DNA of 64,000 bases. Source: Candidatus Thiopontia autotrophica. GTDB taxonomy: Bacteria; Pseudomonadota; Gammaproteobacteria; GCF-002020875. The position numbers were made by a program, and so were the translations under genes. Positions 27,419-61,613 of this stretch are shown in pieces (the first letter of the stretch is position 1; every line of letters starts with the position of its first letter). The stretch spans positions 1,213 to 65,212 of the forward strand of contig JACNFK010000014.1 of assembly GCA_014384675.1 (NCBI GenBank), in the 5' to 3' direction. The notes under the pieces were generated by a model. It saw only the letters and a list, made by a program, of their open reading frames with translations. It had not been told where the DNA came from and searched no databases.

Positions 27419-28884
27419 GATGTATGAAGCACCGAGTGGTCGGATGGTCTCCAAATTGAGCGAATGGTTGATACTGATGCAGTAGATGGAGAGATGTTCT
27501 CTTGTTTGAGAATCTCCGCTGATAAAATTTGCCCCTGGGCGATACGGTCACGTACTGAGACTCCTCCAATGTAGTTGGCAGCAATATGGATACCAGGGGA
27601 GGATGATATATTCGATTTTATCTGCTTCACTCGTGCAGCATATCTGCCATGGTATAGAGGTAGTGCGTCCTGGTGGCGGTGTAGTGTCACCATCTCTGGA
27701 GCCCCGTTAATTCCCAAAATTGGTTTAAGAGCAGAAACAGTTCTCTCTACAATCTCCTCACTCTTCCATTGCTGGATCTCCGGGTGACGTGCACCGCCCA
27801 GATATGTGGTTAGCAGAATCTTGCCCTCGGGGGCGCGATTGTTGAAAAGGCTGCTCATCCAGATATTGCCATTGAATGGTGTGTTCTCGGATTTCGGAGT
27901 AAGGAAGCCGGTACCATCCAGAGAGTGGTCAATCTGACCACGGTCAAAGCCTGTGTGCAGTACTGTGAGGGGGGCATATTCAATCCCGTCCAGAAGTCGA
28001 CTTGCCTCAGGGGATATCGAGCTTAGCAGAGTTGCAGTTACTGCTGCCGGGGTGCTGAAAATTATATGGTGAGCATCCTGTTCAATCTCTATGGATTGTG
28101 GGGATGACCTGTCATGGCCAAACAGACGCCATTTCGGGCTGTTGTTGGTTGATCCAGGTGCTCTTTCAATTGCTGTTGCCTCAAGATTGGTACGGAAGGT
28201 GATCCCCGACTGTCGTGCCAACTGTTCAACCAGGGTAGACATGCCTCCCTTAAAGGAGAAAGTCTCGGTAATGCATCCACTCTTTTTTCGATTGAATTTG
28301 TGAATCATGGCGCCTGCTGTCAGGCTACCATATCTCTTTTCCAGAGCAGTCAGTCTTCCAAGTGTTGCCTCGGCATTGGCCAGATCTGGATCGGAGGCCA
28401 GGGTTCCGGAGACAAATGGGTCCATCGCCTTTTCCAGAAGCTCTCTACCAAAACGGCGTGTAATAAACTCGCTAACCGTCTCATTCTCACTGCCACCACG
28501 AGGAATAAATGGCTCAGCCAGCATTCTCAGCCGTCCTCTCATGCTCCAGCTTTTAGAGAAGAGGACGCTCTGCATATTCATGGAGATGGAGTTGAGTTTC
28601 CCGTTGCTTAACAGGTATCGATTCTGCTCTGCAAGTTGGGTGCGACTGCTCTTTAGTTTCTCAAGCCCGCTCTTTGCTATCAGCTCAGCAACCTCGGGAC
28701 GGAAGTTCAGCAGCAGGGCTGCAGCCTGCTCCATTGTGTACCCATCATGCTCGGTGGTCTTTATCTTTCCTCCGGGTCGTTTGTCACGCTCCCAGATCTC
28801 CACCTCCATCCCGGCCTGGCTCAACCACCATGCAGTTGAAAGTCCGGAGATACCGCCACCAACAATCAATACCTTTTTGGTCAC
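27415..28884 (-). CDS. HemY-family FAD-dependent protoporphyrinogen/coproporphyrinogen oxidase homolog
   Basis: N-terminal VLIVGGGISGLSTAWWL dinucleotide fold. A central ETVSEFITRRFGRELLEKAMDPFVSGTLASDPD block resembles PPOX, and the C-terminus reads NYIGGVSVRDRI. Confidence 0.7.
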   Translation of the reverse strand: MTKKVLIVGGGISGLSTAWWLSQAGMEVEIWERDKRPGGKIKTTEHDGYTMEQAAALLLNFRPEVAELIAKSGLEKLKSSRTQLAEQNRYLLSNGKLNSISMNMQSVLFSKSWSMRGRLRMLAEPFIPRGGSENETVSEFITRRFGRELLEKAMDPFVSGTLASDPDLANAEATLGRLTALEKRYGSLTAGAMIHKFNRKKSGCITETFSFKGGMSTLVEQLARQSGITFRTNLEATAIERAPGSTNNSPKWRLFGHDRSSPQSIEIEQDAHHIIFSTPAAVTATLLSSISPEASRLLDGIEYAPLTVLHTGFDRGQIDHSLDGTGFLTPKSENTPFNGNIWMSSLFNNRAPEGKILLTTYLGGARHPEIQQWKSEEIVERTVSALKPILGINGAPEMVTLHRHQDALPLYHGRYAARVKQIKSNISSSPGIHIAANYIGGVSVRDRIAQGQILSAEILKQENISPSTASVSTIRSIWRPSDHSVLHTS

Positions 28885-30923: not shown

Positions 30924-30936
30924 TATGGAAAAGCAA

Positions 30937-31151
30937 CAGCGCCTCGCGCAAAGACGCAAAGAGGCAAAGGTTCTTTCATCGTCTTTTCTGCAGGATGTGC
31001 GTGATTGATTGTGTGGGTGATTTTTTTAGCTCTATAGATGTACTGCATCACTGAGTAGATTGTAGGTAGTAATTCGTTGCCAATGGGCATTCTGAATTGA
31101 ATACCATTGAACGCTTTTCTTAGCGGCTTTGCGTCTTTGCGCGAGGCGCTG
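30937..31151. repeat. 215 bp element bounded by perfect 25 bp terminal inverted repeats (CAGCGCCTCGCGCAAAGACGCAAAG)
   Basis: Left arm 30937-30961, right arm 31127-31151 as the exact reverse complement. It fills the Usp / radical SAM intergenic gap. Confidence 0.8.
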
Positions 31152-31158
31152 TGGCAGT

Positions 31159-33318
31159 TCATTTATACTGATCCGGATTGGATTCGGAGTGGAATCCGCT
31201 GCCCATCTCCCAGGCGTCACTGGCCTTGTCGACGGCGGCATGAGTCACCTGCTCGAGCCCCAACTCCCGTGCGCATCGCTCTACCTCCAGAACGACCATG
31301 CCCTGGACAAAGTCTGGAATCTTTTTGATCCGTGCGCGGGCTGCAGGGTCCCACACCATGGTGGACTGCTTCTCTTTCGATCCTGCCGCCCACTCGCTAT
31401 ATTTCTCCTCAACCAGCGCCTCGGTAATCTCTTCGGTGCGATGTTTTTTTGCAAACTGCTCGACTCGCTGTTTAGTCAGGTCGCGCATAAACCCTTCAGG
31501 AATACGTTCCATGCGGGCCTCGGCCTCAGGGCTCCAGTGAAGGGAGGTGCGTTGTGCGAGATTGGCAAAGGGGCAGAGGCTCGCTTTTTTCTCTGCTGGC
31601 TGTGGAGGGGTAGAGGATTGTTCTTGCATGGCCTCGGTCATTGCCTCGCGCGCTTGTTCCAATCCCGCTTCGACGACTTCCAGTGTGATCTCTTGCAACT
31701 GGTTGTCGCGGGCATATGATTCAATGCGATCCCTGCTGGAGTCGCGCATGAACCCCTCGGGAACACGGGATAGGCGCGCGAGTGCAGCAGCACCCCATGT
31801 CAGTGTGGATGAGGTAGCAGTAGCCTCTTCTTGGCCGATGAATGGCCGGATATGCTCAATCTTGACCCGATTGGAGCGCTCTCCACGTGCCTTTTTCTCT
31901 GCACGCATACTGAGGTTGCCGCGCAGTGCCAGATCCTCAATCGTCATGAGTAACTGAGAGGCATCGCTGTCCCAGCGCATGATCTTGTCGGTGACGACTC
32001 CAGCTTCTTCCGGTTTACGTTTGAGTTCGCCTGCCTCGTAGGCATCTACAATCTCTCCCATCGCCTGCTCTGCATGGTTCGGCATCAACTGGGCGGTGGC
32101 CTCTTCAACAATTCGTTCGGTAATGACGGTATGGCCACGCTCCTGTGCATAACGGAGGATCGCCATTCTGGCCATATTGCGAACAAAGGAGGGGACCTTA
32201 TCCATTCTGGATTCAGCCTCATTTGTCCATGAGGTGGTGGTCTCCGCCACCACATCAATCTCTGGGCGGTAGGTGCGCTGGCTCAGTAGTACCGCACACT
32301 CGACATTGCGCAGTAATATCTCACTGTTGCCACCAATATCGAGCTCATCATCGGCATGAATCCCCAGCTTTCCGATAACCAGCAGGGAGGGGCGGGCGTT
32401 GGCGACATAGCGTTCAACTGCATCGTGCGCCTTGCCATCAAGCAGGGTGGTCTCAATCTCAACCCCATAATCTCGGGCAATAGATTCTGCCACATCCAGA
32501 TGCCCCTGATAAATCTTGGCCAGACCGGAGTCGATGATCTCCTCGTGGAGCTTCTCCTGCTCCTTGAACTTGAATACCTTGCCTGCCTCCTCGGAAAGAA
32601 CTCCTGCAATCCGGTTAAATGCTACGTAGTGGTAGTAGGGGTCAAAGGCGGAGATCACCTTAACCTTGCAGCTCCACTCTTTTGCCAGGGAGAAAGCCGT
32701 CAGTAATCCACCATAGGCTCTGTCAGAACCGTCAATGGCAACCACAATGGGGCCACGCTCAAGATTTATCTCTGGCTCCTTGATTACCAGAACATCAATC
32801 TCCGAGCGCCGAGCAACGCGGTCGGTTACTGTTCCCAGGCGACTGCCACGAATTGCGCCCAGCCCCAGTGCCCCCATAACCAGCAGGTCATACCTCCCAC
32901 TATTGGTTTCGCGGGTCAGTTCACGATAGTTTTTCCCCTCAAGTGGACGGCGATCAAATGCAATCTCGTTTTCCGCAGCAAGCTCCTCGGCCTGGTCCAG
33001 ATAAGAGTCGGTAATAATGGAGAGGCCCTTGGTGATCAAGTCATCGTGGACATCTCGTTGACGCTCCAGCTCCAGCTCCTCACGAAACTGCTCCGGCAGA
33101 CCTCCCTCCATCTGGCGGAAACGGATGTCATGTAGTTTGGCAGCATAGACATGCGTGCCCGTAATTTTTGCCCCCCAGTGCGCAGCCATTTGAAAGGCCT
33201 CGGTAGTGCCGCGGTTGGAGTGGTCCGAAGAGTCAACAGCAAGCAGTATCCCCTGGTAGGTTGGAAGAGGATCTGGCTTGGTTGGTTGCTCCATTTTTAC
33301 TACATTTTCATTTTGCAT
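31159..33318 (-). CDS. Tandem universal-stress-protein (UspA) domains fused to five PCP_red repeats
   Basis: Two Usp domains (ILLAVDSSDHS...LLVMGALG and IVVAIDGSDRA...LLVIGKLG). Five repeats follow, for example WTNEAESRMDKVPSFVRNMA and WSPEAEARMERIPEGFMRD. Confidence 0.75.
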   Translation of the reverse strand: MQNENVVKMEQPTKPDPLPTYQGILLAVDSSDHSNRGTTEAFQMAAHWGAKITGTHVYAAKLHDIRFRQMEGGLPEQFREELELERQRDVHDDLITKGLSIITDSYLDQAEELAAENEIAFDRRPLEGKNYRELTRETNSGRYDLLVMGALGLGAIRGSRLGTVTDRVARRSEIDVLVIKEPEINLERGPIVVAIDGSDRAYGGLLTAFSLAKEWSCKVKVISAFDPYYHYVAFNRIAGVLSEEAGKVFKFKEQEKLHEEIIDSGLAKIYQGHLDVAESIARDYGVEIETTLLDGKAHDAVERYVANARPSLLVIGKLGIHADDELDIGGNSEILLRNVECAVLLSQRTYRPEIDVVAETTTSWTNEAESRMDKVPSFVRNMARMAILRYAQERGHTVITERIVEEATAQLMPNHAEQAMGEIVDAYEAGELKRKPEEAGVVTDKIMRWDSDASQLLMTIEDLALRGNLSMRAEKKARGERSNRVKIEHIRPFIGQEEATATSSTLTWGAAALARLSRVPEGFMRDSSRDRIESYARDNQLQEITLEVVEAGLEQAREAMTEAMQEQSSTPPQPAEKKASLCPFANLAQRTSLHWSPEAEARMERIPEGFMRDLTKQRVEQFAKKHRTEEITEALVEEKYSEWAAGSKEKQSTMVWDPAARARIKKIPDFVQGMVVLEVERCARELGLEQVTHAAVDKASDAWEMGSGFHSESNPDQYK

Positions 33319-33419
33319 GTTATATAACCTCTTTTTACGGCCTCTTGTGGCCCCTCTCTCTTGTTTATGAATACTTGCAAAAGCACACTAATAATGCGGT
33401 TTTGTAAAGACCCTAAACG

Positions 33420-33445
33420 ATCATCCCCCAATAGAGGGGGATGAT
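33420..33445 (-). terminator. GC-rich hairpin downstream of the cupredoxin-like gene (candidate terminator)
   Basis: ATCATCCCCC-AATAGA-GGGGGATGAT, a 10 bp stem with a weak U-tract. Confidence 0.35.
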
Positions 33446-33580
33446 GTTACAGATTTGTTGGTTGTTCCTAGATCACCATGTACCAAATGATAATGGTGCA
33501 GACAACAACCATGTTGATAGCTCCACCTGTAAGTACCATACGGTCAAACAGGGTGAGTTTCTCTGGAAGCAGACGTCTCA

Positions 33581-34348
33581 TTACTTCATCTTGATATCAA
33601 CAGTTACAGTATCGCCACCCTTAACAGTAGCCTTGCCTTTTCCTGGCTTGAGGAAGCCATTGAAGGCCCTGACCTTGTATTTGCCAGGAGGTACGTTGTC
33701 GATAGTGTACTTTCCGTTGCCATCTACCACAGCGTAGTATGGGCTCTTGGCCACAAAGACGAAACCGTGCATAAAGTCATGAGCATCACACTCAACCTTC
33801 ATGGCATAACCTTTTTTCAGCTTTACAGTCTTGGTCACCTTGCTGCCCTGGTCAGGCTGGCTCACATTTGCAACGGTCTTTTTAGGCCCTTTGACGGTAC
33901 CGGTCATCAGCTCATAGGTGTGAAGATTGTGAAGAACAGGATCAGAGTTGATAGCAGTCATCTTGCCGCCATTTTGCATGATAGAGAGGAATGGGGTGAA
34001 TTCGCATCCTTTCTGATCTACATTGATCTCAGCAGGAGTGTCTCCCCACGCCTTGCCTGATTTTACCTTAGTCAGATAGACAACTGCATTGAGCAGTGCC
34101 TTGCCGTTGGTCTGAACGTAATCGATGATGCGCTGGTCATTGCCACATACGGCATTGTCCTTCTTTATGTCATAAACCTTGTGGGCAGACTTTGGTGCAG
34201 CCTTCTTCAGGGTTACGGTTCCGGTGATGGTGCCGCCATTAGCGACATCAACCACCTTGTAGCCAGCCTCTGAGCTGAGTGGGGTGAATGCAGCAGCAGT
34301 GATTGCTACAGCAGAGAGTGTCTTAAGTAGACGTTTTGATGTTTTCAT
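33581..34348 (-). CDS. Secreted cupredoxin-like (amicyanin/pseudoazurin-type) protein with a C-terminal carboxypeptidase-regulatory-like beta-sandwich
   Basis: Signal peptide. A VLHNLH ... VECDAHDFMHGF arrangement (H ... C-x2-H-x2-M) matches the amicyanin type-1 copper ligand spacing. The C-terminus (GKYTIDNVPPGKYKV) is CarboxypepD_reg-like. Confidence 0.5.
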   Translation of the reverse strand: MKTSKRLLKTLSAVAITAAAFTPLSSEAGYKVVDVANGGTITGTVTLKKAAPKSAHKVYDIKKDNAVCGNDQRIIDYVQTNGKALLNAVVYLTKVKSGKAWGDTPAEINVDQKGCEFTPFLSIMQNGGKMTAINSDPVLHNLHTYELMTGTVKGPKKTVANVSQPDQGSKVTKTVKLKKGYAMKVECDAHDFMHGFVFVAKSPYYAVVDGNGKYTIDNVPPGKYKVRAFNGFLKPGKGKATVKGGDTVTVDIKMK

Positions 34349-34404
34349 GTCAATTTGACTCCTGGGTTAAATAAAACAAAATAGTTAATGAAAAAATAGT
34401 TACT

Positions 34405-36846
34405 TTATGCGGCCTGAAGATGGTCGGGTTCCTGGCTGGTTTGGTATATCTCTTCCAGCATCTCGATCACAAATCTGCGCTCCGCACTGCTCTGCATGGA
34501 CTCCAGCAAGGGTAGCAGATGGTTTGCACCGATTACAGGGTCGAGAATTCTAAGTGCTCTTCCCATATGTCTTGCCTGTTCACCGGCACCAGCAAAACCT
34601 GCGTCCAGTATCTTTAGAATAAATTCTTTGCTCTCTTGGGGGCTTTCTGTGCCACTACTTAACAGCGAGGTTATTGCATCAGCCGCATATTTTCTGACTG
34701 AGGGTTGGTCATCTTCCAGTTTCTCACTGATTTTCTGCAAGATTTCACTGTTGGCAACCTCGTTGGTCACCATGTGAGCCTCTTCTACAGAGTCAAGTTT
34801 GCTTGAGGCAATGGTGGCAAGAGCACGCACCGACTCCATTCGTACAACGGTATCATCATCATCCAAACATTCAATCAGGGTTGGTATGGCAGCCCGGTTT
34901 TCCATTGCTCCAAGGGCGCGGATGGCAGCCATGCGAATGTCGGGGTCACCAAAATGGACCTGAGATATAAGTGTTCCCTGTGTATCAAGCAGTTTTGGGT
35001 TGGCCGGATTGCCAGCAGCAATCTCCGCCAGGGCCTCGGCAGCCAATCTACGAATCTCATGGTCATCATCACTAAGCGCAAGATTTAGCTCATTTATTGC
35101 CAGATTACTTTGTTGACGCCCCAGAATGGTTGCCGCCATGCGACGCACATCAGTATGTATGTCCTTGTTCTTGAACCTGCGTTCACGGCGAACTGTCGCC
35201 TCCTCGTTATCCTCCAGGATGCCAAGATACTCCTTGGTCTCTTCATCAAACTCCTCTTCAGCTGGGGCCTCCTCCTCATCCAGCAAAAGGGCTGCCTCAA
35301 CATTATCCATTGCAATGGCATCGAGTGTTGAGACACTATCGCGGCTTTCACCCTCCAGGGTTGGTGATTCAGGAAAGTCTGGCAACGCAGGTTCTTCGCT
35401 CACGGTATCTTCTTCCGTACCATTTTCAGTGTTGTTCTCCAGATCAACACTCTTGTTGAACTGAACCTCCTGAGACTGGGCAACCACCTCCTTCTGCTCC
35501 TCCTCCTCTTCCTCACGAGTCAGGTCAATCTCGCCATGGAGTGCCGAGAGGATGATCTCAATGGGGCGCGGATGATTTTCACTGTCATCACTGTCAGATG
35601 CTGCTACATATTTATCCTCACAATCCATAAGAGAGATCAGGGCGGCCAGACGAACAGGCTGTTCAGGATCGCTTAGTGCATTGGTGAGTGCATCAACTCC
35701 TGAATCTGTTATCTGGTCCATTAGTGACAGGCTAAGTGCGGCCTGTCTACGAATAGCGATTTCGTTACTGTCATCAGCAAGCAGAGTGACCAGTTTCTCT
35801 TCTGCATCACTGGTGTTCAGTTTTGAGAAGAGCTTGGTCGCTGCAGTAGAAGATTCAATGTCAGCATCACCGATTAATTCAATTATGCGATCAATGACTT
35901 CACCACCAAGCTTCTCTCTCAATACCTCTCTGCGCAGATTTGCCAGGGTATTGAGTGAGGTTGCACGTACCAGGGCGCTCTCATCGTCAAGAAGACCAGT
36001 AAACAGGTCTACAGTCTCCTGGGTTGGGTTTTTCATCTCTCCCAATGTGGTCGCAGCATGTGCTGCTGCACTGCGCACTTCGTCACTTGGGTTCTTTAGT
36101 AACAGCATAATGGCCGGCAGGTATCTCTTCGCATCCTGCTCCTCCAGGGCCTTAATTGCATGTACGCGGACATCAGTGTGTTTGGAGCTTAGTGCTCTAC
36201 CAAGAATCTTGACTGCCTCTGCAGAATTTGACCGTCCCAGAGCGGTAGCCGCACGGCGCTGTTTACGAACATCCCCTTCATTCAGGATCTTTTCCAGGGT
36301 TTTGATGCTCTCTTCACTACCAATAGCGGCCATGGATCGCAGAATCTCTGGCTCTATATCTTCACCTTCAATGCTGTTGAGCAGTCGTTCCAGTGCAGGT
36401 ACAGCGTCATTGGCCTTTAGCTTGCCGAGTGATTTAACCGCAGCGAGCTGAACATCCCACCAGAGATCCCATCCATCCTCGATGTAACCTATCTCATCAT
36501 CACGATTCTCCATAACGCGCATCAGCTCAGGTACTGCGGATTGGTCGCCGAGTTCCCCCAGGGCCTTGGCAACGGCAGTTTTTACCTCGCCATCAGGATC
36601 TTTCTCAAGAGACTCAATTAGTGAAGCAGCGACCCCCTCGCCACCAAGTTTTCCGAGTGTGGATGCTGCATCAACACATACATCAATATCCTTGTCTCTA
36701 AGGAATGGCAGAACTTTTTTGGATACACTATTTGTAGCTGATGGGGCACAAAGTTTCCCCAGAGCCTGAGTTACATAACAGCGATCAGCTTCGTCACCGG
36801 TCTCTAGCAGGTGGGTTAATGCATCAATTGTTTTATTCAGGCTCAT
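34405..36846 (-). CDS. Large HEAT-repeat (PBS-lyase-type) protein with acidic low-complexity segments
   Basis: Repeated VRxxAAxALGxLGD HEAT/E-Z motifs throughout its 813 aa, with EEEEEQKE and DEEEAPAEEEFDEE tracts. Confidence 0.7.
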   Translation of the reverse strand: MSLNKTIDALTHLLETGDEADRCYVTQALGKLCAPSATNSVSKKVLPFLRDKDIDVCVDAASTLGKLGGEGVAASLIESLEKDPDGEVKTAVAKALGELGDQSAVPELMRVMENRDDEIGYIEDGWDLWWDVQLAAVKSLGKLKANDAVPALERLLNSIEGEDIEPEILRSMAAIGSEESIKTLEKILNEGDVRKQRRAATALGRSNSAEAVKILGRALSSKHTDVRVHAIKALEEQDAKRYLPAIMLLLKNPSDEVRSAAAHAATTLGEMKNPTQETVDLFTGLLDDESALVRATSLNTLANLRREVLREKLGGEVIDRIIELIGDADIESSTAATKLFSKLNTSDAEEKLVTLLADDSNEIAIRRQAALSLSLMDQITDSGVDALTNALSDPEQPVRLAALISLMDCEDKYVAASDSDDSENHPRPIEIILSALHGEIDLTREEEEEEQKEVVAQSQEVQFNKSVDLENNTENGTEEDTVSEEPALPDFPESPTLEGESRDSVSTLDAIAMDNVEAALLLDEEEAPAEEEFDEETKEYLGILEDNEEATVRRERRFKNKDIHTDVRRMAATILGRQQSNLAINELNLALSDDDHEIRRLAAEALAEIAAGNPANPKLLDTQGTLISQVHFGDPDIRMAAIRALGAMENRAAIPTLIECLDDDDTVVRMESVRALATIASSKLDSVEEAHMVTNEVANSEILQKISEKLEDDQPSVRKYAADAITSLLSSGTESPQESKEFILKILDAGFAGAGEQARHMGRALRILDPVIGANHLLPLLESMQSSAERRFVIEMLEEIYQTSQEPDHLQAA

Positions 36847-36895
36847 GGTATTAGGCTCTCTATATAAAAATTATCTTTAGAATTCAGTAACAGTA

Positions 36896-36911
36896 TGCAT
36901 AAGGTGTGCCA
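36896..36911 (-). promoter_or_regulatory. Sigma-54 (-24/-12) promoter for the HEAT-cupredoxin transcript
   Basis: The minus strand reads TGGCACACCTTATGCA. GG and GC are spaced exactly as in TGGCAC-N5-TTGC, about 50 nt upstream of the HEAT start. Confidence 0.6.
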
Positions 36912-36975
36912 AATACTTTATCTTATTGATAATCAATGGGTTGATTATCTGGATATTTATATACTACCAGGTAAA

Positions 36976-37087
36976 TTGAACGATATGTTCAATTGGAAGA
37001 ATCGTTCCATAGATTATTGAACAAAACGTTCAGTTTGTGAACATTATGGTCTATTTTTTATAAACTTAAAACTGAACAAAACGTTCA
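36976..37087. promoter_or_regulatory. Three TGAAC-N5-GTTCA palindromes (candidate UAS/enhancer sites) plus one TGGAA-N6-TTCCA palindrome
   Basis: TTGAACGATATGTTCAA (36976-36992), TGAACAAAACGTTCA (37018-37032) and TGAACAAAACGTTCA (37073-37087), plus TGGAAGAATCGTTCCA (36994-37009). They lie in a divergent AT-rich intergenic region between two sigma-54 promoters. Confidence 0.6.
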
Positions 37088-37140
37088 CATTCATATGTAA
37101 CAGACTGTAAAATAAAATATATTTATAAAATTTTTATTTA

Positions 37141-37156
37141 TGGCATATAAAATGCA
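37141..37156 (+). promoter_or_regulatory. Sigma-54 (-24/-12) promoter for the CydA-like/cytochrome operon
   Basis: TGGCATATAAAATGCA with GG-N10-GC spacing. It is 62-158 bp downstream of the three palindromes. Confidence 0.6.
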
Positions 37157-37195
37157 AGTAGTTGGCGGATATTGGCATTAAACCAAGGGTTGGCT

Positions 37196-37348
37196 ATGAC
37201 AGAAGAGAACGAGAACAGAGAAAGTGTTAAGCAGGATAGTGAAGAGGTGACATGGGGGCCGAAGCTGTTTCTGGCGGTAACAGGCGGTGTTCTTCTCTTC
37301 TTCTGGTGGCTTCTGATCTATTCAGGTGGTGTGGTATTACACCACTGA
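37196..37348 (+). CDS. 50 aa small membrane protein (below the ORF-track size cutoff)
   Basis: MTEENENRESVKQDSEEVTWGPKLFLAVTGGVLLFFWWLLIYSGGVVLHH. It has an RBS-like AAGGG about 8 nt upstream and is the first ORF after the sigma-54 promoter. Confidence 0.3.
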   Translation: MTEENENRESVKQDSEEVTWGPKLFLAVTGGVLLFFWWLLIYSGGVVLHH

Positions 37349-37393
37349 CTTTTCAAACACCAAAGCGCTCATAATCATTTAGCAGGTAAACTG

Positions 37394-37519
37394 ATGAAAA
37401 CTGGAATTGCATTTGTAGTTGCCCTTTTTGTGGCATTTTTTCTGTTCTATGGAATGGATCATCTCATCATGGGAATGCAGGGGCTTCCTCTGAATCTCGA
37501 CATGTCGCCGGCGCAGTAG
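37394..37519 (+). CDS. 41 aa single-TM peptide, possibly a CydX-like accessory subunit
   Basis: MKTGIAFVVALFVAFFLFYGMDHLIMGMQGLPLNLDMSPAQ. It ends 16 nt before the CydA-like start. Confidence 0.3.
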   Translation: MKTGIAFVVALFVAFFLFYGMDHLIMGMQGLPLNLDMSPAQ

Positions 37520-37535
37520 AAGGAATAAAAATCCA

Positions 37536-39356
37536 ATGAAACAAAGACTATTTTTCTGGGTATTGCTCTTCTCTGTCATTGTGGCAGGGATGTTTGGGGG
37601 TGATTTCGGTTCACCTTCACTACTCAATGAGGCTCTCGCCTCTGATGCTGTAGTAGAGGAGGGGGCGCAACTGGCTTCAGCTCCTCAGCCAAATCGTGGC
37701 GATTATCCAAATATAGGGGTCAGTAGTCGGGCGGTTGTGTGGGTTATCGCACAGATGCACCTCTTCTTTGGGGCGCTGGTGTTGGCGGTACCGATGTTTG
37801 TGGTCGGTATTGAGTTTATGGGTTTCAAAACCGGTGATGAGCGCTATGATGATATGGCCCATGAGTTCATGAAGATCAGTATCACCGCCTACTCCATTAC
37901 TGCGCTGTTTGGTGGAACCCTGGCGATTGCCCTCTTCCTGCTCTATCCAACCTTTATGAGCTACATGATGGAGGTGTTCGGGGCACAGATGTTGGTCTAT
38001 GCGGTGCTCTTTTTCCTTGAGAGCTTCTTCCTCTATATCTACTACTATGGCTGGAATGTACTCCGTTATGGTAACAAAAAGTGGATCCACCTCTCTTTGG
38101 GGATGATGCTCAATGGGGTAGGGCTGACTCTGATGTTTATGGCTAACTCCTGGTCCACCTTCATGATGGCCCCATCCGGGGTGAGTGATGTGGGTGCAGT
38201 GGTGGGGAATATCTGGGAGGTTATGAAGGGGCCGCTGTGGAACCCAATCAATCTGCATCGATTCATCGCCAATGTCGCCTTTGGTGGAGCCGTAGTAGGG
38301 GCCTATGCCGGGTTTAAGTTTCTTGCAGCAAAAACGCAGGAGCAGAAAGCACACTATGACTGGATGGGATATACCTCTAACTTTATTGCGATCCTCGCCT
38401 TTTTACCCCTCCCCTTTGCGGGCTATTGGTTGATGGCAGAGGTCTATGCATACTCTCAGCAGATGGGAATTACCGCCATGGGTGGTATTCTTGCGTGGCT
38501 CTTTATTGTACAGGCGGTATTGATTGGAACCATCTTGTTGGCAGCCAACTACTATCTATGGTCAGGGATGTCTCGTACCGAGGGCTCCAAACGCTATCAG
38601 GGGTTTATTAAGTGGATTGCTGGAACGCTTGTGGTCTGCTTTCTGATCTGGATGACCCCTCACACCTTGCTGCTAACGGCAAGCGAGATCTCCGCCTTGG
38701 GTGGAAGTCACCACCATATTCTTGGGCCACTGGGGATCATGCCGGCGAAAAATATTGCGGTCAATCTGATGTTGATTATGACCTTTCTCTCCTTCCAGCT
38801 CTACCGTCGATCCGATAAAGTGGCAACCGTCTCTTGGGCGCCAGTTGGAAATGCACTGATGACAGCCATCTATATTGTGGCGATTGTGAATATTATCTTT
38901 GCAGGTGTCTATTATGGATATTTCACTAATACGGTATACAAGGTCGGATCCAGTGTGACCCAGGTGGTATCTACCTTGATGGTGATTATCATTGGGGTAA
39001 TGCTGGATGGCATCATGTATAAAAATGCCAAAGTGAAATTTCCTGCAGTTTGGGGAAAAGTCTCCAACCGTTCACAGTATGCACTCTTCGCCCTACCGGT
39101 TGCCTTTACCTGGTTGATGGGATTGATGGGATATGTACGCTCTTCGGTCAAGACCCATTGGCATGTCTATACGGTGATGAAAGATAACTCACCAGATAAC
39201 TATATTCCTGCAATTGGTTATGCGGGAAATATGGTTACTCTGGTTACGGTACTGTTTATTGTCTTCCTGTTATTCGTGTTCTGGATTGCCAACCTTAGTG
39301 GGCAGAAACAGATTGCACCCCAAGCTGCCAATGGTGAAAAAGGAGCAGAGGGATGA
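37536..39356 (+). CDS. Cytochrome bd-type quinol oxidase subunit I-like membrane protein (an orphan CydA homolog with no CydB partner)
   Basis: 606 aa and polytopic. MHLFFGALVLAVPMF corresponds to the CydA helix-1 His region. LESFFLYIYYYGWNVL matches the CydA FLES...FFFGWDRL block. The C-terminus is extended. Confidence 0.7.
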   Translation: MKQRLFFWVLLFSVIVAGMFGGDFGSPSLLNEALASDAVVEEGAQLASAPQPNRGDYPNIGVSSRAVVWVIAQMHLFFGALVLAVPMFVVGIEFMGFKTGDERYDDMAHEFMKISITAYSITALFGGTLAIALFLLYPTFMSYMMEVFGAQMLVYAVLFFLESFFLYIYYYGWNVLRYGNKKWIHLSLGMMLNGVGLTLMFMANSWSTFMMAPSGVSDVGAVVGNIWEVMKGPLWNPINLHRFIANVAFGGAVVGAYAGFKFLAAKTQEQKAHYDWMGYTSNFIAILAFLPLPFAGYWLMAEVYAYSQQMGITAMGGILAWLFIVQAVLIGTILLAANYYLWSGMSRTEGSKRYQGFIKWIAGTLVVCFLIWMTPHTLLLTASEISALGGSHHHILGPLGIMPAKNIAVNLMLIMTFLSFQLYRRSDKVATVSWAPVGNALMTAIYIVAIVNIIFAGVYYGYFTNTVYKVGSSVTQVVSTLMVIIIGVMLDGIMYKNAKVKFPAVWGKVSNRSQYALFALPVAFTWLMGLMGYVRSSVKTHWHVYTVMKDNSPDNYIPAIGYAGNMVTLVTVLFIVFLLFVFWIANLSGQKQIAPQAANGEKGAEG

Positions 39357-40177
39357 GTCAGAGTAACCAGGTACTTCCAAAGATATTGGCATTTAGTGTG
39401 GGGCTGGTGTTGCTCTTTACCTTTGTTGCCAACATTCTTCCACAGGTTGAGGGCGAGGCGCCGGTGGACAAGAAGGTGGATCTCGGTGCGCTCACCATGG
39501 ATGGCTTTGTCTCGATGGGAGAAGAGTTATTCAAGGGGAAGGGGACCTGTACCCTCTGTCATAATAATCTTGGGCGCGCGCCTGATATTCTGGCATTGAA
39601 TATGGTGGAGACTGCCGCTGAGCGGTTAAAAGATGAGCGCTATCAAGGAAAATCTACTGATTCGGCCAGTTACTTTATGGAGTCAATGGTAGACCCCTCG
39701 ATCTATGTGGTGGCGAGCTTTGGAAAGAAGGGCAGTAATGATACGGAATCACCTATGCCCGCTGTGAATAAGGCCCCCATTAACCTTTCAGCGATAGAGA
39801 TGGATGCGGTCATCGCCTTTATGCAGGCCAAGGATGGTGGTGAGGTTACGGTGGAGCTGCCTACAGAGGCTCCAGTGGTCGATGAATCTGCTGTCACAGG
39901 CGGCGGAGCACCTGCCCCGGCAGCAACTGGTGAAGAGGCGGTAGGAAAATATGGTTGTGCGGCCTGTCATGTTATTAACGGTTCAGGAGGCGATCTTGGT
40001 CCGGACCTGACTGGGCTAGGCAGCAGACAAAATGTTCTGGTTATTCAACAGAGTATTGTTGATCCAAATGCAGTTATTGCAGATGGATTTGCCCAAGGAC
40101 TTATGCCGGCTGATTTTGGTGACAAGATGACAGTCAAGGAGTTGTCGATGATTGTTGAATTGCTGCAGGGGCAGTAG
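39353..40177 (+). CDS. Membrane-anchored diheme cytochrome c
   Basis: Two CxxCH motifs (CTLCH and CAACH) and an N-terminal TM anchor. Its start overlaps the CydA-like stop (ATGA). Confidence 0.8.
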   Translation: MSQSNQVLPKILAFSVGLVLLFTFVANILPQVEGEAPVDKKVDLGALTMDGFVSMGEELFKGKGTCTLCHNNLGRAPDILALNMVETAAERLKDERYQGKSTDSASYFMESMVDPSIYVVASFGKKGSNDTESPMPAVNKAPINLSAIEMDAVIAFMQAKDGGEVTVELPTEAPVVDESAVTGGGAPAPAATGEEAVGKYGCAACHVINGSGGDLGPDLTGLGSRQNVLVIQQSIVDPNAVIADGFAQGLMPADFGDKMTVKELSMIVELLQGQ

Positions 40178-40242
40178 TCGAGATTTCAATGGCAGCGGAT
40201 GCTGCGATTTTTTTAACTTTTTATCAATGTAAGGAATTAATA

Positions 40243-40560
40243 ATGAACAAGGTAATGATTAGTGTTGTGGCAACTGTAGTAATGGCTTCAAGCCAGTCTG
40301 TAATGGCCGATGCCGCCGGTGATTTTGCCGCCGGCTGTTTTGCCTGTCACAGCCCTGCAACTGCAGCTGCAGTAGGCGCTCCTGGCATGGGTGATAAGGC
40401 TGCCTGGGCGCCACGCATCGCCAAGGGTATGGATGCACTCTATGCAACCGCAATCAATGGCTCTCCAACAAACCCACTGATGATGCCGCGTGGTGGAACC
40501 GCTTTGAGTGATGATGCGCTAAAGGCTGTGGTGGACTACATGGTTGAGCAGTCAAAATAA
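40243..40560 (+). CDS. Monoheme cytochrome c (c5/c553-like)
   Basis: Signal peptide, then a CFACH heme motif in a roughly 85-residue mature domain. The start is taken at MNKVMIS, which has a better RBS than the ORF-track start at 40189. Confidence 0.75.
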   Translation: MNKVMISVVATVVMASSQSVMADAAGDFAAGCFACHSPATAAAVGAPGMGDKAAWAPRIAKGMDALYATAINGSPTNPLMMPRGGTALSDDALKAVVDYMVEQSK

Positions 40561-40615
40561 GTTGGCTGATATTTTTTTACCAAAATAGCTATTAGAGATT
40601 TGGAGTAGACCCCCC

Positions 40616-43051
40616 ATGAAACGATTTGGAATTTCGGCATTCTGGCAGGCAATTATTGTAACTATTGCGGCCTACCTGATATTTACCAATGCCTTTCCTC
40701 CATTGATGCCAAAGTCACTGGTGGTTCAGTTTATGCTGATTACCGTGATAGGGGTGCTACTCTACTTCTCTTTTGATGATGAGCGCTGGGCAGAATTTTT
40801 AAGTCCCATTCAGAATGTTCTGCGAGGCGGTGGTTTCCGTTTGACGGTTACCCGTTGGCTCTTCCTGCTTGCAATCCCTGCAGTGGTTGGTTACACAACC
40901 TATGGGTTGGTCAAACCATCACTGGACTCTCCTGTGGAGCTGCGCCAGGTTCATCCTGCCCCTCCATCAACCGTCAAGATCTGGGGCAAGAATTTTGATC
41001 TAAACAGTCTGGAGAGCCCGATCCGTACCGAGGTGCTGACCCAGTGGAAGAGTGGTGAGCGTGAGGGAGCCATGGAGATCTATAACGAGTCAGTCAATGC
41101 GGGCCGTGATGTCTACTATGGCAACTGCTTCTTCTGTCACGGTGATCTGCTGGATGGCAAGGGCCACTATGCGGAAGGGTTTAACCCTCAACCCATCAAT
41201 TTTCAGGATCCAACTGTAATTCCACAACAGCAGGAGGCCTTCCTCTTCTGGCGTGCGGCAACAGGTGGTCCAGGTCTGCCCAAGGAGGGAACTCCATGGA
41301 ACTCTGCAATGCCGGTCTGGCACGAAATGTTGAGTGAGGATGATATCTGGAATGTGCTGATGTTTATCTTCGACTACAACGAGCAGGTTCCAAGAATCTG
41401 GAATCTGGAAGATTCTGAGGCAGCTACAGGAATCAGAGACTCTATTCTCGAGGCCCGCAAAGGGATGGGGGGAGATGAACTCTACCAGTTCCGCTGTATG
41501 GTCTGTCACGGTGAGGAGGGCATGGGTGATGGTGTTGCTGCAGAGTTGATGTACCCCAAGCCACGTGATTTCTCCTTGTCGATGTTTAAATACAAAAGCT
41601 CTCCAGGAACAATCCTGCCAAGGGATGAAGATCTTTTCCATACCATCAAGTTTGGACTGGATGGTACGGGAATGCCAGGTTGGGGAACCCTGCTTAGCGA
41701 TGAGCAGATCAGTAGTCTGATACCGGTAATCAAGTCGTTTGATATTGCCGCAGCATGGCCGCCAGAAGAGGCGGATGATGAAGATTATGATGAGGATAGC
41801 GGCCGTTATCTGAAGGATGATTTCCAGGTAATTACCGAGCGTGAACCGGAAGAGGGACAGATTGCATACACCCCGGAGTCAATAGAGAAGGGCAAGGCTG
41901 CCTTCGAAAAGTCATGTACAGAGTGTCACGGTGATACTGGACGAGGCAATATCATGTCCGGTAAACAGCTAGCGGATGACTGGGGTAATCGTATCTGGCC
42001 ACGAGATCTGACCAAGCCATGGACTTGGCGCGCCACCAACTATACTGCTGGCAAGACTCCGGAAGAGAGCCGAGATCAGACTGTGCGCAATATCTATAGT
42101 CGACTATCTATCGGCATACCAGGAACTCCAATGCCAGCTCACCGAGCTACAGAAGAGGGGAATAAAGATCCGGTAAGTCTGGAGGATCGTTGGCATATTG
42201 CCAATTATGTATACAGCCTGCGCGAAACCACTACCCAGCTGGGTGATAATAATGTGATTCGTGCAGCCAAGGTAGCTGGGGCTCTCCCTGATAGTATGGA
42301 TGATGCCGGTTGGGAAGGGGCTGAGCCTACAACTCTGATGATGGTTCCTAATATCATCAAGGAAGAGCGTCTCTTCACCCCGCTTAATGATGCAATTACT
42401 GTGCGTGCCCTCTACAACAAAAAGGAGATCGCCCTGCTGCTGGAGTTTGATGACCGTACTGATAGTCGTCCCGGTGAAGAGACCTCGGAGGGAATTCAGG
42501 ATGAGGATCTGGAGCTGTTCTCGGATGCGGTTGCGGTTCAGTTCCCCAAGGAGGATGGATTTGAGACCTCACCGGTAGTGGTTAAGCCGTTATACCGCCA
42601 CGGTGATGGCAGACACCACACAACCATGTGGTACTGGAATGCTGGTAGTGTAGAGCCGGCTGTTGCCGATTCCGGGATGTTGCTGGATGCCTCTGGCCCA
42701 GACAAGAAGATCGAGCCACGAATTGGTGATACCTCTCTCTTGACCGAAGGTAGATGGAAAGATGGTCGCTGGCAGGTACTGATGAAGCGTTCACGCAATG
42801 GTGGAGGCAGGGATGGCAAAACTGGTGATCTCAACTTTGTTGAGGGCAGATTCCTCCCCATCTCCTTTGCCAACTGGGATGGCAGTAATGGCGAGAAGGG
42901 TGCCAGACATACCCTCACCACATGGACCTGGTTGGTGCTGCCACCAGAGATTGATGAGCAGCGACTCTATGGGGTTCCTGGGGGTGTTGCCTTTGCCATC
43001 TTCCTTGCCGGCCTTATTTTGGTAAGAACCCAGCGTAGAGGTGCCAAGTAG
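40616..43051 (+). CDS. Membrane-bound triheme cytochrome c with a large C-terminal domain
   Basis: Three N-terminal TM helices, three class-I-like heme sites (CFFCHGD, CMVCHGE, CTECHGD) and a C-terminal TM helix. 811 aa. Confidence 0.75.
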   Translation: MKRFGISAFWQAIIVTIAAYLIFTNAFPPLMPKSLVVQFMLITVIGVLLYFSFDDERWAEFLSPIQNVLRGGGFRLTVTRWLFLLAIPAVVGYTTYGLVKPSLDSPVELRQVHPAPPSTVKIWGKNFDLNSLESPIRTEVLTQWKSGEREGAMEIYNESVNAGRDVYYGNCFFCHGDLLDGKGHYAEGFNPQPINFQDPTVIPQQQEAFLFWRAATGGPGLPKEGTPWNSAMPVWHEMLSEDDIWNVLMFIFDYNEQVPRIWNLEDSEAATGIRDSILEARKGMGGDELYQFRCMVCHGEEGMGDGVAAELMYPKPRDFSLSMFKYKSSPGTILPRDEDLFHTIKFGLDGTGMPGWGTLLSDEQISSLIPVIKSFDIAAAWPPEEADDEDYDEDSGRYLKDDFQVITEREPEEGQIAYTPESIEKGKAAFEKSCTECHGDTGRGNIMSGKQLADDWGNRIWPRDLTKPWTWRATNYTAGKTPEESRDQTVRNIYSRLSIGIPGTPMPAHRATEEGNKDPVSLEDRWHIANYVYSLRETTTQLGDNNVIRAAKVAGALPDSMDDAGWEGAEPTTLMMVPNIIKEERLFTPLNDAITVRALYNKKEIALLLEFDDRTDSRPGEETSEGIQDEDLELFSDAVAVQFPKEDGFETSPVVVKPLYRHGDGRHHTTMWYWNAGSVEPAVADSGMLLDASGPDKKIEPRIGDTSLLTEGRWKDGRWQVLMKRSRNGGGRDGKTGDLNFVEGRFLPISFANWDGSNGEKGARHTLTTWTWLVLPPEIDEQRLYGVPGGVAFAIFLAGLILVRTQRRGAK

Positions 43052-43120: not shown

Positions 43121-43154
43121 ACCCTCCCGGCACTGTCGGCGAGGGTATTTTTTT
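43121..43154 (+). terminator. Rho-independent terminator after the triheme cytochrome gene
   Basis: ACCCTC...GAGGGT stem followed by ATTTTTTT. Confidence 0.5.
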
Positions 43155-43183
43155 GAATGTAACGTTCTGTTTGAGTGGTCAGT

Positions 43184-43241
43184 TGAACGATTCGTTTAAG
43201 TAGTTCACCATAGTTACAGATAAAGTGAATAATGTGTTCAC
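43184..43241. promoter_or_regulatory. Two TGAA-N7-TTCA palindromes (candidate UAS sites) upstream of the CCP operon promoter
   Basis: TGAACGATTCGTTTA (43184-43198, one mismatch) and GTGAATAATGTGTTCAC (43225-43241). Both have the same half-site and spacing as the 36976-37087 sites. Confidence 0.5.
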
Positions 43242-43328: not shown

Positions 43329-43344
43329 TGGCACAGAAAATGCT
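43329..43344 (+). promoter_or_regulatory. Sigma-54 (-24/-12) promoter for the CCP-CCP-Rieske-Mo operon
   Basis: TGGCACAGAAAATGCT, exact TGGCAC with a correctly spaced GC, about 120 nt upstream of the first CCP start. Confidence 0.6.
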
Positions 43345-44603: not shown

Positions 44604-44622
44604 GCGATCAGGAGAGTTAATT

Positions 44623-46478: not shown

Positions 46479-46490
46479 GGAGAAAAAGAT

Positions 46491-61597: not shown

Positions 61598-61613
61598 GGA
61601 AAGGAGAATAGAT

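What the first reader, a model, noticed from the sequence alone, without database searches (positions are those of the whole stretch)
36847..37535. Divergent back-to-back sigma-54 promoters sharing one AT-rich enhancer region
A minus-strand promoter (TGGCACACCTTATGCA) and a plus-strand promoter (TGGCATATAAAATGCA) lie 230 bp apart and point away from each other. They have three TGAAC-N5-GTTCA palindromes and a TGGAA-N6-TTCCA palindrome between or beside them, and long A/T tracts (for example TAAAATAAAATATATTTATAAAATTTTTATTTA) suited to IHF-mediated looping. A single enhancer array serving two divergent sigma-54 promoters is an elegant and uncommon arrangement.
Basis: seen in the sequence. Interest (0 to 1): 0.7.

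Follow-up and report, generated by a model that had tools for sequence, protein, structure and literature searches.

The report
Conserved divergent sigma-54 promoters, shared enhancer
Two back-to-back sigma-54 promoters flank a set of TGAAC-N5-GTTCA activator sites, conserved across many marine sulfur-oxidising bacteria; they probably let one locally encoded two-component activator switch on an uncharacterised respiratory gene cluster, an arrangement already known from other bacteria.

Summary
Both 16-mers and the three TGAAC-N5-GTTCA palindromes lie where stated and are the only exact copies in 64 kb, apart from a third promoter at 43329.

Across 66 orthologous intergenic regions from other Gammaproteobacteria:
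- 63 keep a minus-strand sigma-54 motif just upstream of the HEAT-repeat gene, and 63 keep a plus-strand one.
- TGAAY-N5-RTTCA occurs at 1.54 per kb between them, against 0.01 per kb elsewhere.

The likely activator is encoded locally. The minus-strand operon ends in a sensor kinase and an NtrC-type sigma-54 enhancer-binding response regulator, and both are conserved with the cluster. Its recognition helix does not vary among the eight orthologues compared.

The same sites also precede the third promoter, which heads an idr/aio-like operon. Loci that lack the regulator operon lack the sites. One genome has the two promoters split by an insertion and keeps a full three-site array on each side.

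Binding, start sites and sigma-54 dependence are inferred, not shown. IHF involvement is weakly supported.

The architecture is a known kind (zraP/zraSR, hyc/hyp). The new elements are the regulator, its motif and its targets. Verdict: a real, ordinary-in-kind, newly described regulon.

The parts
36896..36911 (-). Sigma-54-type promoter P_minus (TGGCAC-N5-ATGCA). Predicted start is near 36885, 39 nt before the ATG of the HEAT-repeat gene.
   Evidence: A minus-strand sigma-54 motif lies within 250 bp of the HEAT start in 63 of 66 orthologous regions. GG and GC are invariant in alignment A1.
36926..36946 (.). IHF-like element. It comprises a TTGAT conserved in close relatives plus a palindromic exact IHF consensus (AATCAATGGGTTGATT), about -41 to -61 from the P_minus start.
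   Evidence: exact WATCAANNNNTTR on both strands. (TTGA invariant). Conservation across the family is weak.
36977..36991 (.). Activator site 1, TGAACGATATGTTCA (centre -99 from P_minus, -183 from P_plus).
36994..37009 (.). Site 1', TGGAAGAATCGTTCCA. It aligns as a degenerate tandem copy of site 1 with an intact GTTC half.
   Evidence: conserved as TGGAAGATCTGTTCCA in L001 and L003-L007.
37018..37032 (.). Activator site 2, TGAACAAAACGTTCA (centre -140 from P_minus and -142 from P_plus, the centre of symmetry of the region).
37038..37052 (.). Site 2', a degenerate copy TGAACATTATGGTCT, 20 bp from site 2.
   Evidence: TTTGTGAAC..ATGG conserved in relatives.
37073..37087 (.). Activator site 3, TGAACAAAACGTTCA (centre -87 from P_plus, -195 from P_minus).
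37108..37140 (.). 33-nt pure A/T tract abutting the -24 element of P_plus. It may act as an intrinsic bend or a degenerate IHF site.
   Evidence: The region is AT-rich but not sequence-conserved in relatives.
37141..37156 (+). Sigma-54-type promoter P_plus (TGGCAT-N5-ATGCA). Predicted start is near 37167, 29-30 nt before the first small gene.
   Evidence: A plus-strand motif is present in 63 of 66 orthologous regions.
37196..37519 (+). Two conserved small single-helix membrane-protein genes (37196-37348, 50 aa; 37394-37519, 41 aa). They are the first genes of the plus operon.
   Evidence: conserved WGPKLF..FFYWLLIYSGGV and FYGLDHLIM.MQGLPLNLD. Called as genes in L081-L087.
37536..43051 (+). 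Structural genes of the plus operon: a cytochrome bd-like subunit I (606 aa), a cytochrome c of 274 aa with two CxxCH motifs, a cytochrome c (123 aa), and a multihaem cytochrome c with an EB_dh haem-b domain (811 aa).
   Evidence: Synteny is conserved in about 70 loci.
27086..36846 (-). Minus operon, presumed maturation part. It encodes a HEAT-repeat protein, a secreted 255-aa protein, USP+PCP_red, an AhbD/NirJ-like radical SAM+PCP_red protein, a protoporphyrinogen-oxidase-like flavoprotein, and a 122-aa protein.
   Evidence: Synteny.
24426..27095 (-). Sensor histidine kinase (periplasmic Cache-like sensor, two PAS domains, HisKA, HATPase).
   Evidence: Conserved with the cluster.
22994..24382 (-). 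NtrC-type sigma-54 enhancer-binding response regulator. It is the proposed binder of the TGAAY-N5-RTTCA sites and the last gene of the minus operon.
   Evidence: Asp54, Walker A, GSFTGA, invariant HTH SRPRLRR.
43154..43240 (.). Second array of the same sites upstream of the third promoter: TGAATGTAACGTTCT (43154), TGAACGATTCGTTTA (43184) and TGAATAATGTGTTCA (43226).
43329..43344 (+). Third sigma-54-type promoter (TGGCAC-N5-ATGCT). It precedes two cytochrome c peroxidase genes, a Rieske gene and an AioA/IdrA-like molybdoenzyme gene (43467-49184). A terminator follows at about 49207-49240.
   Evidence: The same module sits upstream of the orthologous peroxidase gene in L001 and L067, and a similar site pair plus sigma-54 motif occurs in L007.

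Best explanation
**What it is.** The region 36847-37195 is the control region of a conserved respiratory gene cluster.

**Proposed mechanism.**
1. A sensor kinase (24426-27095) phosphorylates an NtrC-type enhancer-binding response regulator (22994-24382).
2. Dimers of that regulator bind the TGAAY-N5-RTTCA sites: three strong ones and two degenerate ones.
3. The bound dimers assemble into an ATPase oligomer that contacts sigma-54 RNA polymerase by DNA looping.
4. The polymerase is already sitting in closed complexes at the two outward-facing promoters.

**What each promoter drives.**
- P_plus drives two small membrane proteins, a bd-like (OR-N-type) subunit and three cytochromes c.
- P_minus drives a HEAT-repeat and tetrapyrrole-modifying maturation operon. 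That operon ends in the kinase and regulator genes, so the circuit feeds back positively on itself.
- A second array of the same sites drives a third sigma-54 promoter at 43329, heading an idr/aio-like operon.

**Shown here (by sequence and comparison):** the motifs, their conservation, their co-occurrence with the regulator genes, and the domain content of the regulator.

**Inferred:** sigma-54 dependence, the start sites, which protein binds the sites, operon continuity as far as the regulator genes, the signal sensed, and any role of IHF.
For: **Motifs in the window.** They are present and non-random.

**Promoters across relatives.**
- Invariant alignment columns coincide with both -24/-12 elements and with the sites.
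- In 66 orthologous regions, sigma-54-like hits run at 1.16 per kb per strand, against 0.33 in the rest of the loci.
- 63 of 66 have the minus promoter within 250 bp of the HEAT start, and 63 of 66 have a plus promoter.

**Sites across relatives.**
- Sites with one mismatch or fewer occur at 1.96 per kb inside against 0.055 per kb outside.
- TGAAY-N5-RTTCA exact occurs at 1.54 against 0.01 per kb, in 56 of 66 loci.
- Preferred positions are near -95 and -140 from P_minus, with recurrent 41-bp spacing.
- All site clusters outside the main region lie upstream of further sigma-54 motifs. In L001 and L067 the gene downstream is a cytochrome c peroxidase, the first gene of the same operon type.

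**The regulator.**
- The kinase and regulator genes end the minus operon in Sedimenticola, Thiolapillus, Thiodiazotropha and others, while the genes flanking the cluster differ.
- It has the receiver Asp, Walker A, a G(A/S)FTGA loop and an invariant HTH helix (L087).

**Negative control.** Six bd-like loci without the adjacent HEAT/regulator operon have no sites upstream of the bd-like gene; five also lack any sigma-54 motif there, and L075 has one lone hit (score 18.5).

**Natural split.** In L017 each separated promoter keeps a full three-site array.

**Alternatives checked.** Sigma-70-like matches are not enriched in the region (5 found against 2.8 expected). No Rfam family matches it.
Against: - There is no experimental evidence of any kind.
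- rpoN is not in the window, and its presence in this genome could not be checked.
- The regulator carries GSFTGA rather than the canonical GAFTGA. Its closest relative has GAFTGA.
- The regulator lies 12-14 kb from the sites. Two gaps of 262 and 199 bp inside the minus 'operon' (33319-33580 and 30960-31158) could hold internal promoters or terminators, so autoregulation is not established.
- Ten of 66 loci lack an exact site, and three loci lack recognisable promoters at the threshold used.
- IHF consensus sites are only weakly enriched: 16-25% of promoter-proximal zones against 8% background.
- In genera with longer intergenic regions, the sites look partitioned into promoter-proximal groups rather than one common array.
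Confidence: 0.72

Rival explanations
1. Both promoters are sigma-54-dependent and use the same regulator, but the array is partitioned rather than shared. Sites 1, 1' and 2 serve P_minus. Site 3, with 2', serves P_plus. The compact 282-bp arrangement merely juxtaposes two independent enhancers.
For: In genera with 400-600 bp between the predicted start sites, the sites fall into a pair at about -95/-137 from P_minus and a separate site at about -130 to -200 from P_plus. The third promoter works with its own local array. L017 shows that arrays can function when attached to a single promoter.
Against: In the clade of L013, L015 and L020 only three sites lie between the promoters, yet the split relative L017 carries three on each side. 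This implies that each promoter needs the whole array. Site 2 is equidistant from both predicted starts (-140/-142). A single dimer site (site 3 alone) is normally not enough to nucleate an enhancer-binding-protein oligomer (general knowledge of NtrC-type activators).
Confidence: 0.2
2. The palindromes bind a different protein, not the cluster-encoded regulator. This could be another enhancer-binding protein encoded elsewhere, or a repressor or nucleoid protein. The cluster-encoded regulator would then act at other, unrecognised sequences or other targets.
For: No binding data exist. The regulator gene is 12-14 kb away. Other conserved blocks are present in some clades, for example TTGCAAGCCTGCAA and GTAATGTGCAAAT in L064-type regions.
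Against: No other DNA-binding regulator is encoded in the conserved cluster. The sites occur only at enhancer-like distances from sigma-54 motifs, at three promoters. Sites and the regulator operon are present or absent together. The HTH helix is invariant, matching the invariant half-site.
Confidence: 0.06
3. The sigma-54-like 16-mers are chance matches in AT-rich DNA, and the operons are transcribed from ordinary sigma-70 promoters. The palindromes would then be operators of a conventional regulator.
For: Five sigma-70-like hexamer pairs are found in the region. The motifs are short.
Against: The sigma-70-like count is not above the shuffled expectation (5 against 2.8 ± 1.6). GG-N10-GC with matching flanks is conserved at the same position in 63 of 66 regions, although the surrounding sequence has diverged beyond alignment. 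A sigma-54 activator gene is part of the cluster.
Confidence: 0.02

Closest known systems
zraP / zraSR (hydHG) of E. coli and Salmonella
   Same: Two divergent sigma-54-dependent promoters are controlled by one NtrC-type response regulator. That regulator's own two-component genes form one of the two divergent operons, giving positive autoregulation (PMC4987338). The regulator binds inverted repeats in the intergenic region (own knowledge of Leonhartsberger et al. 2001).
   Different: The regulator here is not a ZraR orthologue: 339 bits against a cutoff of 760. The binding motif, the sensed signal and the targets all differ. The regulator genes sit at the far end of an 8-gene, 14-kb operon rather than next to the promoter. 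A third promoter belongs to the regulon.
hyc / hyp divergent operons controlled by FhlA in enterobacteria
   Same: Structural genes and maturation genes of one redox enzyme are transcribed divergently from sigma-54 promoters under one activator (table in PMC4987338). IHF assistance is from own knowledge.
   Different: FhlA is a formate-binding GAF-type activator, not a phosphorylated response regulator. Its site is CATTTCGTACGAAATG. The enzyme regulated there is hydrogenase 3, not a bd-like cytochrome complex.
NtrC (glnAp2) enhancer
   Same: A receiver-AAA+-HTH_8 activator that binds dyad-symmetric sites of about 15-17 bp at roughly -100 to -140, in multiples, to build the active oligomer. NtrC is the best-scoring NCBIfam model (418.7 bits).
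   Different: The score is below the NtrC equivalog cutoff of 558.6. The half-site is TGAAY rather than TGCACC. The regulator is not linked to nitrogen-assimilation genes.
AioXSR control of aioBA (arsenite oxidase)
   Same: A sigma-54 promoter in front of a Rieske plus AioA-family molybdoenzyme operon, controlled by a histidine kinase and NtrC-type regulator pair (own knowledge). The third promoter here precedes such genes.
   Different: No AioX-like periplasmic binding-protein gene was seen in the cluster. The operon starts with two cytochrome c peroxidases, which is the idr (iodate reductase) signature (PMC8692401). The regulator pair is inherited with the bd-like/HEAT cluster, also in genomes where no aio/idr genes are adjacent.

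Membership tests
Sigma-54 (RpoN)-dependent promoter | GG and GC doublets exactly 10 bp apart within a TGGCAC-N5-TTGCW-like context | tested here: met
   P_minus is TGGCACACCTTATGCA, P_plus is TGGCATATAAAATGCA and P3 is TGGCACAGAAAATGCT.
Sigma-54 (RpoN)-dependent promoter | The element is conserved at the orthologous position in related genomes | tested here: met
   63 of 66 regions for each promoter, against a background of 0.33 hits per kb per strand. Invariant in alignment A1.
Sigma-54 (RpoN)-dependent promoter | The transcript starts about 12 nt downstream of the GC, and expression needs rpoN | not testable with these tools
   No transcript data are available. rpoN is not in the window, and the rest of the genome could not be searched.
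Bacterial enhancer-binding protein, NtrC-type response regulator | Receiver domain with a phospho-acceptor Asp, an AAA+ sigma-54 interaction domain with Walker A and a GAFTGA loop, and a C-terminal Fis-type HTH | tested here: met
   Pfam Response_reg, Sigma54_activat, AAA_lid_14 and HTH_8. D54, GESGTGKE, GSFTGA (GAFTGA in six relatives) and an invariant HTH.
Named equivalogs NtrC, AtoC, ZraR, GlrR, NorR, LuxO | Whole-protein score at or above the curated NCBIfam equivalog cutoff | tested here: not met
   NtrC 418.7 against 558.6. AtoC 391.5 against 714. ZraR 339.2 against 760. All others are also below their cutoffs.
Upstream activating sequence (enhancer) of a sigma-54 promoter | Several dyad-symmetric sites about 80-200 bp upstream of the promoter, conserved and specific to such promoters | tested here: met
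   Geometry. Enrichment of 36-fold to 154-fold. Every site cluster outside the main region lies upstream of another sigma-54 motif.
Upstream activating sequence (enhancer) of a sigma-54 promoter | Physical binding by the cognate activator | not testable with these tools
   Needs a footprint, EMSA or DAP-seq.
IHF-assisted sigma-54 promoter | An IHF site (WATCAANNNNTTR) between the enhancer and the promoter | tested here: inconclusive
   An exact consensus lies at 36931-36946 upstream of P_minus, and none upstream of P_plus. Across loci only 10 of 63 and 16 of 63 zones have a match with one mismatch or fewer, against 8% background.
Divergent autoregulated sigma-54 two-component module (zraP/zraSR type) | Two outward-facing sigma-54 promoters around one set of activator sites, with the activator and its kinase encoded in one of the two operons | tested here: met
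   Operon continuity down to the regulator genes is inferred: no convincing minus-strand terminator was found, but two gaps of about 200-260 bp exist.
Iodate reductase cluster idrABP1P2 (for the third operon) | An AioA-related molybdoenzyme plus a Rieske subunit, adjacent to two cytochrome c peroxidases | tested here: met
   Two CCP_MauG proteins, a Rieske-size 198-aa protein, and a molybdopterin protein with a Rieske_3 domain. The synteny criterion comes from PMC8692401. Placement inside the IdrA clade and activity were not tested.

The most novel reading that the evidence does not exclude
One dedicated two-component sigma-54 circuit, with a previously undescribed TGAAY-N5-RTTCA enhancer motif, co-regulates three units as a single respiratory regulon. 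The units are an OR-N-type bd-like cytochrome complex, a private tetrapyrrole-modifying maturation operon (an AhbD/NirJ-like radical SAM protein, a protoporphyrinogen-oxidase-like enzyme, PCP_red and HEAT proteins), and an idrABP1P2-like iodate reductase operon. This would mean the enigmatic bd-like complex carries a specially made haem cofactor. It would also mean the complex works together with iodate (or a related oxyanion) reduction, for instance by consuming the reactive oxygen or iodine products.
Probability: 0.15. Interest if true: 0.7.

Novelty: new member of a known kind. Interest (0 to 1): 0.42.

Why it matters
**Function of the cluster.** OR-N-type bd-like proteins are widespread, but how they work is not known (bioRxiv 10.1101/2021.01.16.426971). 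This control region supplies three things:
- a defined regulator;
- a defined DNA motif that can be searched for genome-wide, to list everything the cell switches on together with the complex;
- a kinase whose stimulus would reveal the conditions under which the complex is used.

**Link to the idr/aio-like operon.** The same motif sits in front of that operon in this organism and in Motiliproteus. This suggests a functional connection that can be tested in cultivable Sedimenticola or Motiliproteus strains.

**As a regulatory architecture.** It adds a well-conserved example, but not a new principle.

Tried and rejected
- **Rfam scan of 36700-37700 at E ≤ 1.** Only a meaningless weak hit, so there is no riboswitch or small RNA in the region.
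- **Sigma-70 promoter and terminator scan.** Matches are not above the shuffled expectation.
- **FNR/CRP-type reading of the palindromes.** Rejected. TTGA-N9-TCAA has the wrong spacing for TTGAT-N4-ATCAA (sequence inspection).
- **IHF as a conserved component.** Tested across 63 loci and found only weakly enriched, so it is kept as possible for this window only.
- **The 12-mer ATCAATGGGTTG.** It occurs three times in the window. The other two copies lie inside genes with no extended similarity, so it was not pursued.
- **Literature searches.** Searches for the motif, for an AioR binding site and for the bd-like cluster in sulfur-oxidiser papers found nothing relevant.
- **Active-site comparison of the AioA-like protein with solved AioA structures.** Only a distant alignment was obtained, and it was not taken further.
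- **A long direct repeat to explain the duplicated array in L017.** None was found.
- **Two alignment calls failed** because of off-by-one coordinates. They were repeated correctly.
Full report

Yes.
- TGGCACACCTTATGCA lies at 36896-36911 on the minus strand and TGGCATATAAAATGCA at 37141-37156 on the plus strand. They are 230 bp apart and face outwards.
- The pattern TGGCAY-N5-WTGCW occurs three times in 64 kb against 0.61 expected. The third copy is at 43329 (+).
- TGAAC-N5-GTTCA occurs exactly three times, all here (36977, 37018, 37073), against 0.13 expected. None of 100 shuffles gave three.
- TGGAA-N6-TTCCA (36994) is not significant on its own.
- The 33-nt pure A/T tract (37108-37140) abuts the plus-strand -24 element.

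**2. Gene context**

The minus promoter faces an eight-gene string:
- a HEAT-repeat protein (34405-36846);
- a secreted 255-aa protein;
- a USP+PCP_red protein;
- an AhbD/NirJ-like radical SAM/SPASM+PCP_red protein;
- a protoporphyrinogen-oxidase-like flavoprotein;
- a 122-aa protein;
- a sensor histidine kinase (24426-27095);
- an NtrC-type sigma-54 enhancer-binding response regulator (22994-24382).

The plus promoter faces these genes:
- Two small genes come first, at 37196-37348 and 37394-37519.
- Next is a cytochrome bd-like subunit I. This gene probably belongs to the quinol-site-less OR-N family (my reading, not tested).
- Then come three cytochromes c. The last of these carries an EB_dh haem-b domain.

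**3. Comparative evidence for the promoters and sites**

The organism is an uncultured marine gammaproteobacterium. The bd-like protein is 72-93% identical in MAGs labelled Piscirickettsiaceae or Thiotrichales, and in Sedimenticola, Thiodiazotropha, Thiolapillus, Motiliproteus and others.

Of the 80 loci from species-representative genomes, plus six loci fetched later and the window itself, 66 have the same HEAT<-|->bd-like divergent arrangement with 300-1600 bp between the genes.

An alignment of the window with its seven closest relatives gives only 62% mean column identity. Even so, the invariant columns coincide with both -24/-12 elements, the palindromes, a TTGA next to the minus promoter, and the TGGAA element. 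That alignment also shows two further things:
- The TGGAA palindrome is a degenerate tandem copy of site 1 (TTGGAcGATCTGTTCaAT | TGGAaGATCTGTTCcAT).
- A fifth, degenerate site follows site 2.

Across all 66 regions:
- Sigma-54-like hits occur at 1.16 per kb per strand, against 0.33 in the rest of the same loci.
- 63 regions have a minus-strand hit within 250 bp of the HEAT start, and 63 have a plus-strand hit.
- Palindromes with at most one mismatch occur at 1.96 per kb inside against 0.055 per kb outside.
- The refined motif TGAAY-N5-RTTCA occurs at 1.54 against 0.01 per kb, and is present in 56 of 66 regions.
- The sites sit preferentially near -95 and -140 from the predicted minus start, with a recurrent 41-bp spacing.

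**4. The activator**

- The kinase and regulator genes close the minus-strand string in every longer contig examined: a close relative, Sedimenticola, Thiolapillus, Thiodiazotropha, a Polarisedimenticolaceae MAG and two others. The genes beyond them differ each time. The pair therefore belongs to the cluster.
- The regulator has the receiver aspartate, Walker A and a GSFTGA loop (GAFTGA in relatives). Its recognition helix, SRPRLRR, is invariant at 60-80% overall identity (for an eighth sequence).
- It is below the curated cutoff of every named equivalog, including NtrC, AtoC, ZraR, NorR, GlrR and LuxO. It is thus an uncharacterised member of the NtrC family.

**5. Tests of the link between regulator, sites and promoters**

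- **Same module elsewhere.** Every cluster of sites outside the main region lies upstream of another sigma-54 motif.
  - In the window there are three sites, at about -194, -164 and -122 from the promoter at 43329.
  - That promoter heads two cytochrome c peroxidase genes, a Rieske gene and an AioA/IdrA-family molybdoenzyme gene.
  - The same module precedes the orthologous peroxidase gene in L001 and in Motiliproteus L067.
- **Negative control.** Six loci have the bd-like gene without the adjacent HEAT/regulator operon (Parabeggiatoa, Halobeggiatoa, Sulfuricaulis, a Thiotrichaceae MAG and a Burkholderiales MAG). None has sites upstream of the gene. Five also have no sigma-54 motif there, and the Sulfuricaulis locus L075 has one lone hit.
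- **Natural split.**
  - In L017 a 4.4-kb insertion carries a LuxR-type regulator gene and a large peroxidase-like gene, and it separates the two promoters.
  - Each side keeps a complete three-site array with the same internal spacing.
  - Its unsplit relatives (L013, L015, L020) have a single three-site array between the promoters.
  - No long repeat explains this.
  - This is the best available argument that each promoter needs the whole array, and hence that the array is shared in the compact arrangement.

**6. Geometry in the window**

Predicted starts are near 36885 and 37167, 282 bp apart. The 5' leaders are about 39 and 30 nt.

| Site | From P_minus | From P_plus |
|---|---|---|
| 1 | -99 | -183 |
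| 1' | -116 | -165 |
| 2 | -140 | -142 |
| 2' | -160 | -122 |
| 3 | -195 | -87 |

Site 2 is the centre of symmetry. The 281-284 bp distance and the 41/55 bp spacings are strictly kept in the seven closest relatives.

**7. IHF and A/T tracts**

- An exact, palindromic IHF consensus lies at 36931-36946, at about -45 to -61 from the minus start.
- No such site precedes the plus promoter, where only the A/T tract is found.
- Across the family, IHF-like matches are only modestly enriched in the promoter-proximal zones: 16% and 25%, against 8%.
- IHF assistance is therefore plausible for this window but is not a supported general feature.

**8. Alternatives**

- Sigma-70-like matches are not enriched.
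- No RNA family matches the region.
- The palindrome spacing does not fit FNR/CRP sites.
- A different binding protein cannot be excluded without biochemistry. However, no other regulator is encoded in the conserved cluster.
- The most serious rival is that the array is partitioned rather than shared, which only site mutations in dual reporters can settle.

**9. Comparison with known systems**

- The closest architecture is zraP/zraSR. There ZraR drives divergent sigma-54 promoters, one of them for its own two-component operon (PMC4987338).
- hyc/hyp under FhlA is the closest in logic: structural genes one way, maturation genes the other.
- The regulator here is an orthologue of neither.
- Its motif was not found in the searchable literature.
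- The arrangement is a new member of a known kind.

**10. Verdict**

Four additions follow:
- the cognate two-component genes;
- likely positive autoregulation;
- a third promoter in the regulon;
- five sites rather than three plus one.

The IHF element and the claim of rarity are the weak parts. Interest is moderate. The architecture is textbook. The value lies in giving an uncharacterised, widely conserved respiratory cluster, and its apparent link to an idr/aio-like operon, a defined regulator and motif.

Noticed in passing
window 43467-49184 (terminator about 49207-49240): An operon of two cytochrome c peroxidases, a Rieske-size subunit and an AioA-family molybdoenzyme. This is the gene content used to define iodate reductase (idrABP1P2) clusters. 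It lies directly downstream of the bd-like operon, with its own sigma-54 promoter and the same activator sites.
   Followed up: partly
window 27415-33318 (-): Unusual domain fusions. A universal-stress protein carries four PCP_red domains. An AhbD/NirJ2-like radical SAM/SPASM protein carries three PCP_red domains. Next to them is a protoporphyrinogen-oxidase-like gene that passes the TIGR00562 cutoff. Together they suggest a dedicated tetrapyrrole-cofactor pathway for the bd-like complex.
   Followed up: partly
L017 1777-4842: A 4.4-kb insertion lies between the divergent promoters. It carries a LuxR-type response regulator gene and a 766-aa peroxidase/MauG-like gene. The three-site array is present on both sides of the insertion, with no long direct repeat.
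   Followed up: partly
L067 11300-12440: In Motiliproteus, SCO1/SenC-like and PCuAC-like copper-chaperone genes lie between the EB_dh cytochrome gene and the peroxidase operon. This hints that the bd-like complex or its partners need copper. The identification rests on reading the sequence only.
   Followed up: no
window 50108-53968: An SCP2 (UbiT-like) gene and a U32 peptidase (UbiU/V-like) gene, with a radical SAM gene and a flavin mono-oxygenase-like gene between them. They resemble the oxygen-independent ubiquinone biosynthesis set. A cbb3-type oxidase (ccoNOP) follows at 60137-63468. The window is thus rich in low-oxygen respiration genes.
   Followed up: no
window 22880, 36932, 49915: The 12-mer ATCAATGGGTTG occurs three times exactly. 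One copy is the IHF-like element of the control region. The other two lie inside genes without extended similarity.
   Followed up: partly
window 171-186 (-): Another good sigma-54-like match, TGGCAGTATTGATGCA, lies in an intergenic stretch at the very start of the window and points out of the window.
   Followed up: no
L064, L045, L056, L058 intergenic regions (alignment A3): In this clade the activator site is the symmetric variant TGAAT-N5-ATTCA. Further invariant blocks are present (TTGCAAGCCTGCAA, GTAATGTGCAAAT). They may be sites for an additional factor.
   Followed up: no
window 13198-14316 (-): A Fic/DOC-family gene with a DUF4172 N-terminal domain, sitting among housekeeping genes.
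   Followed up: no
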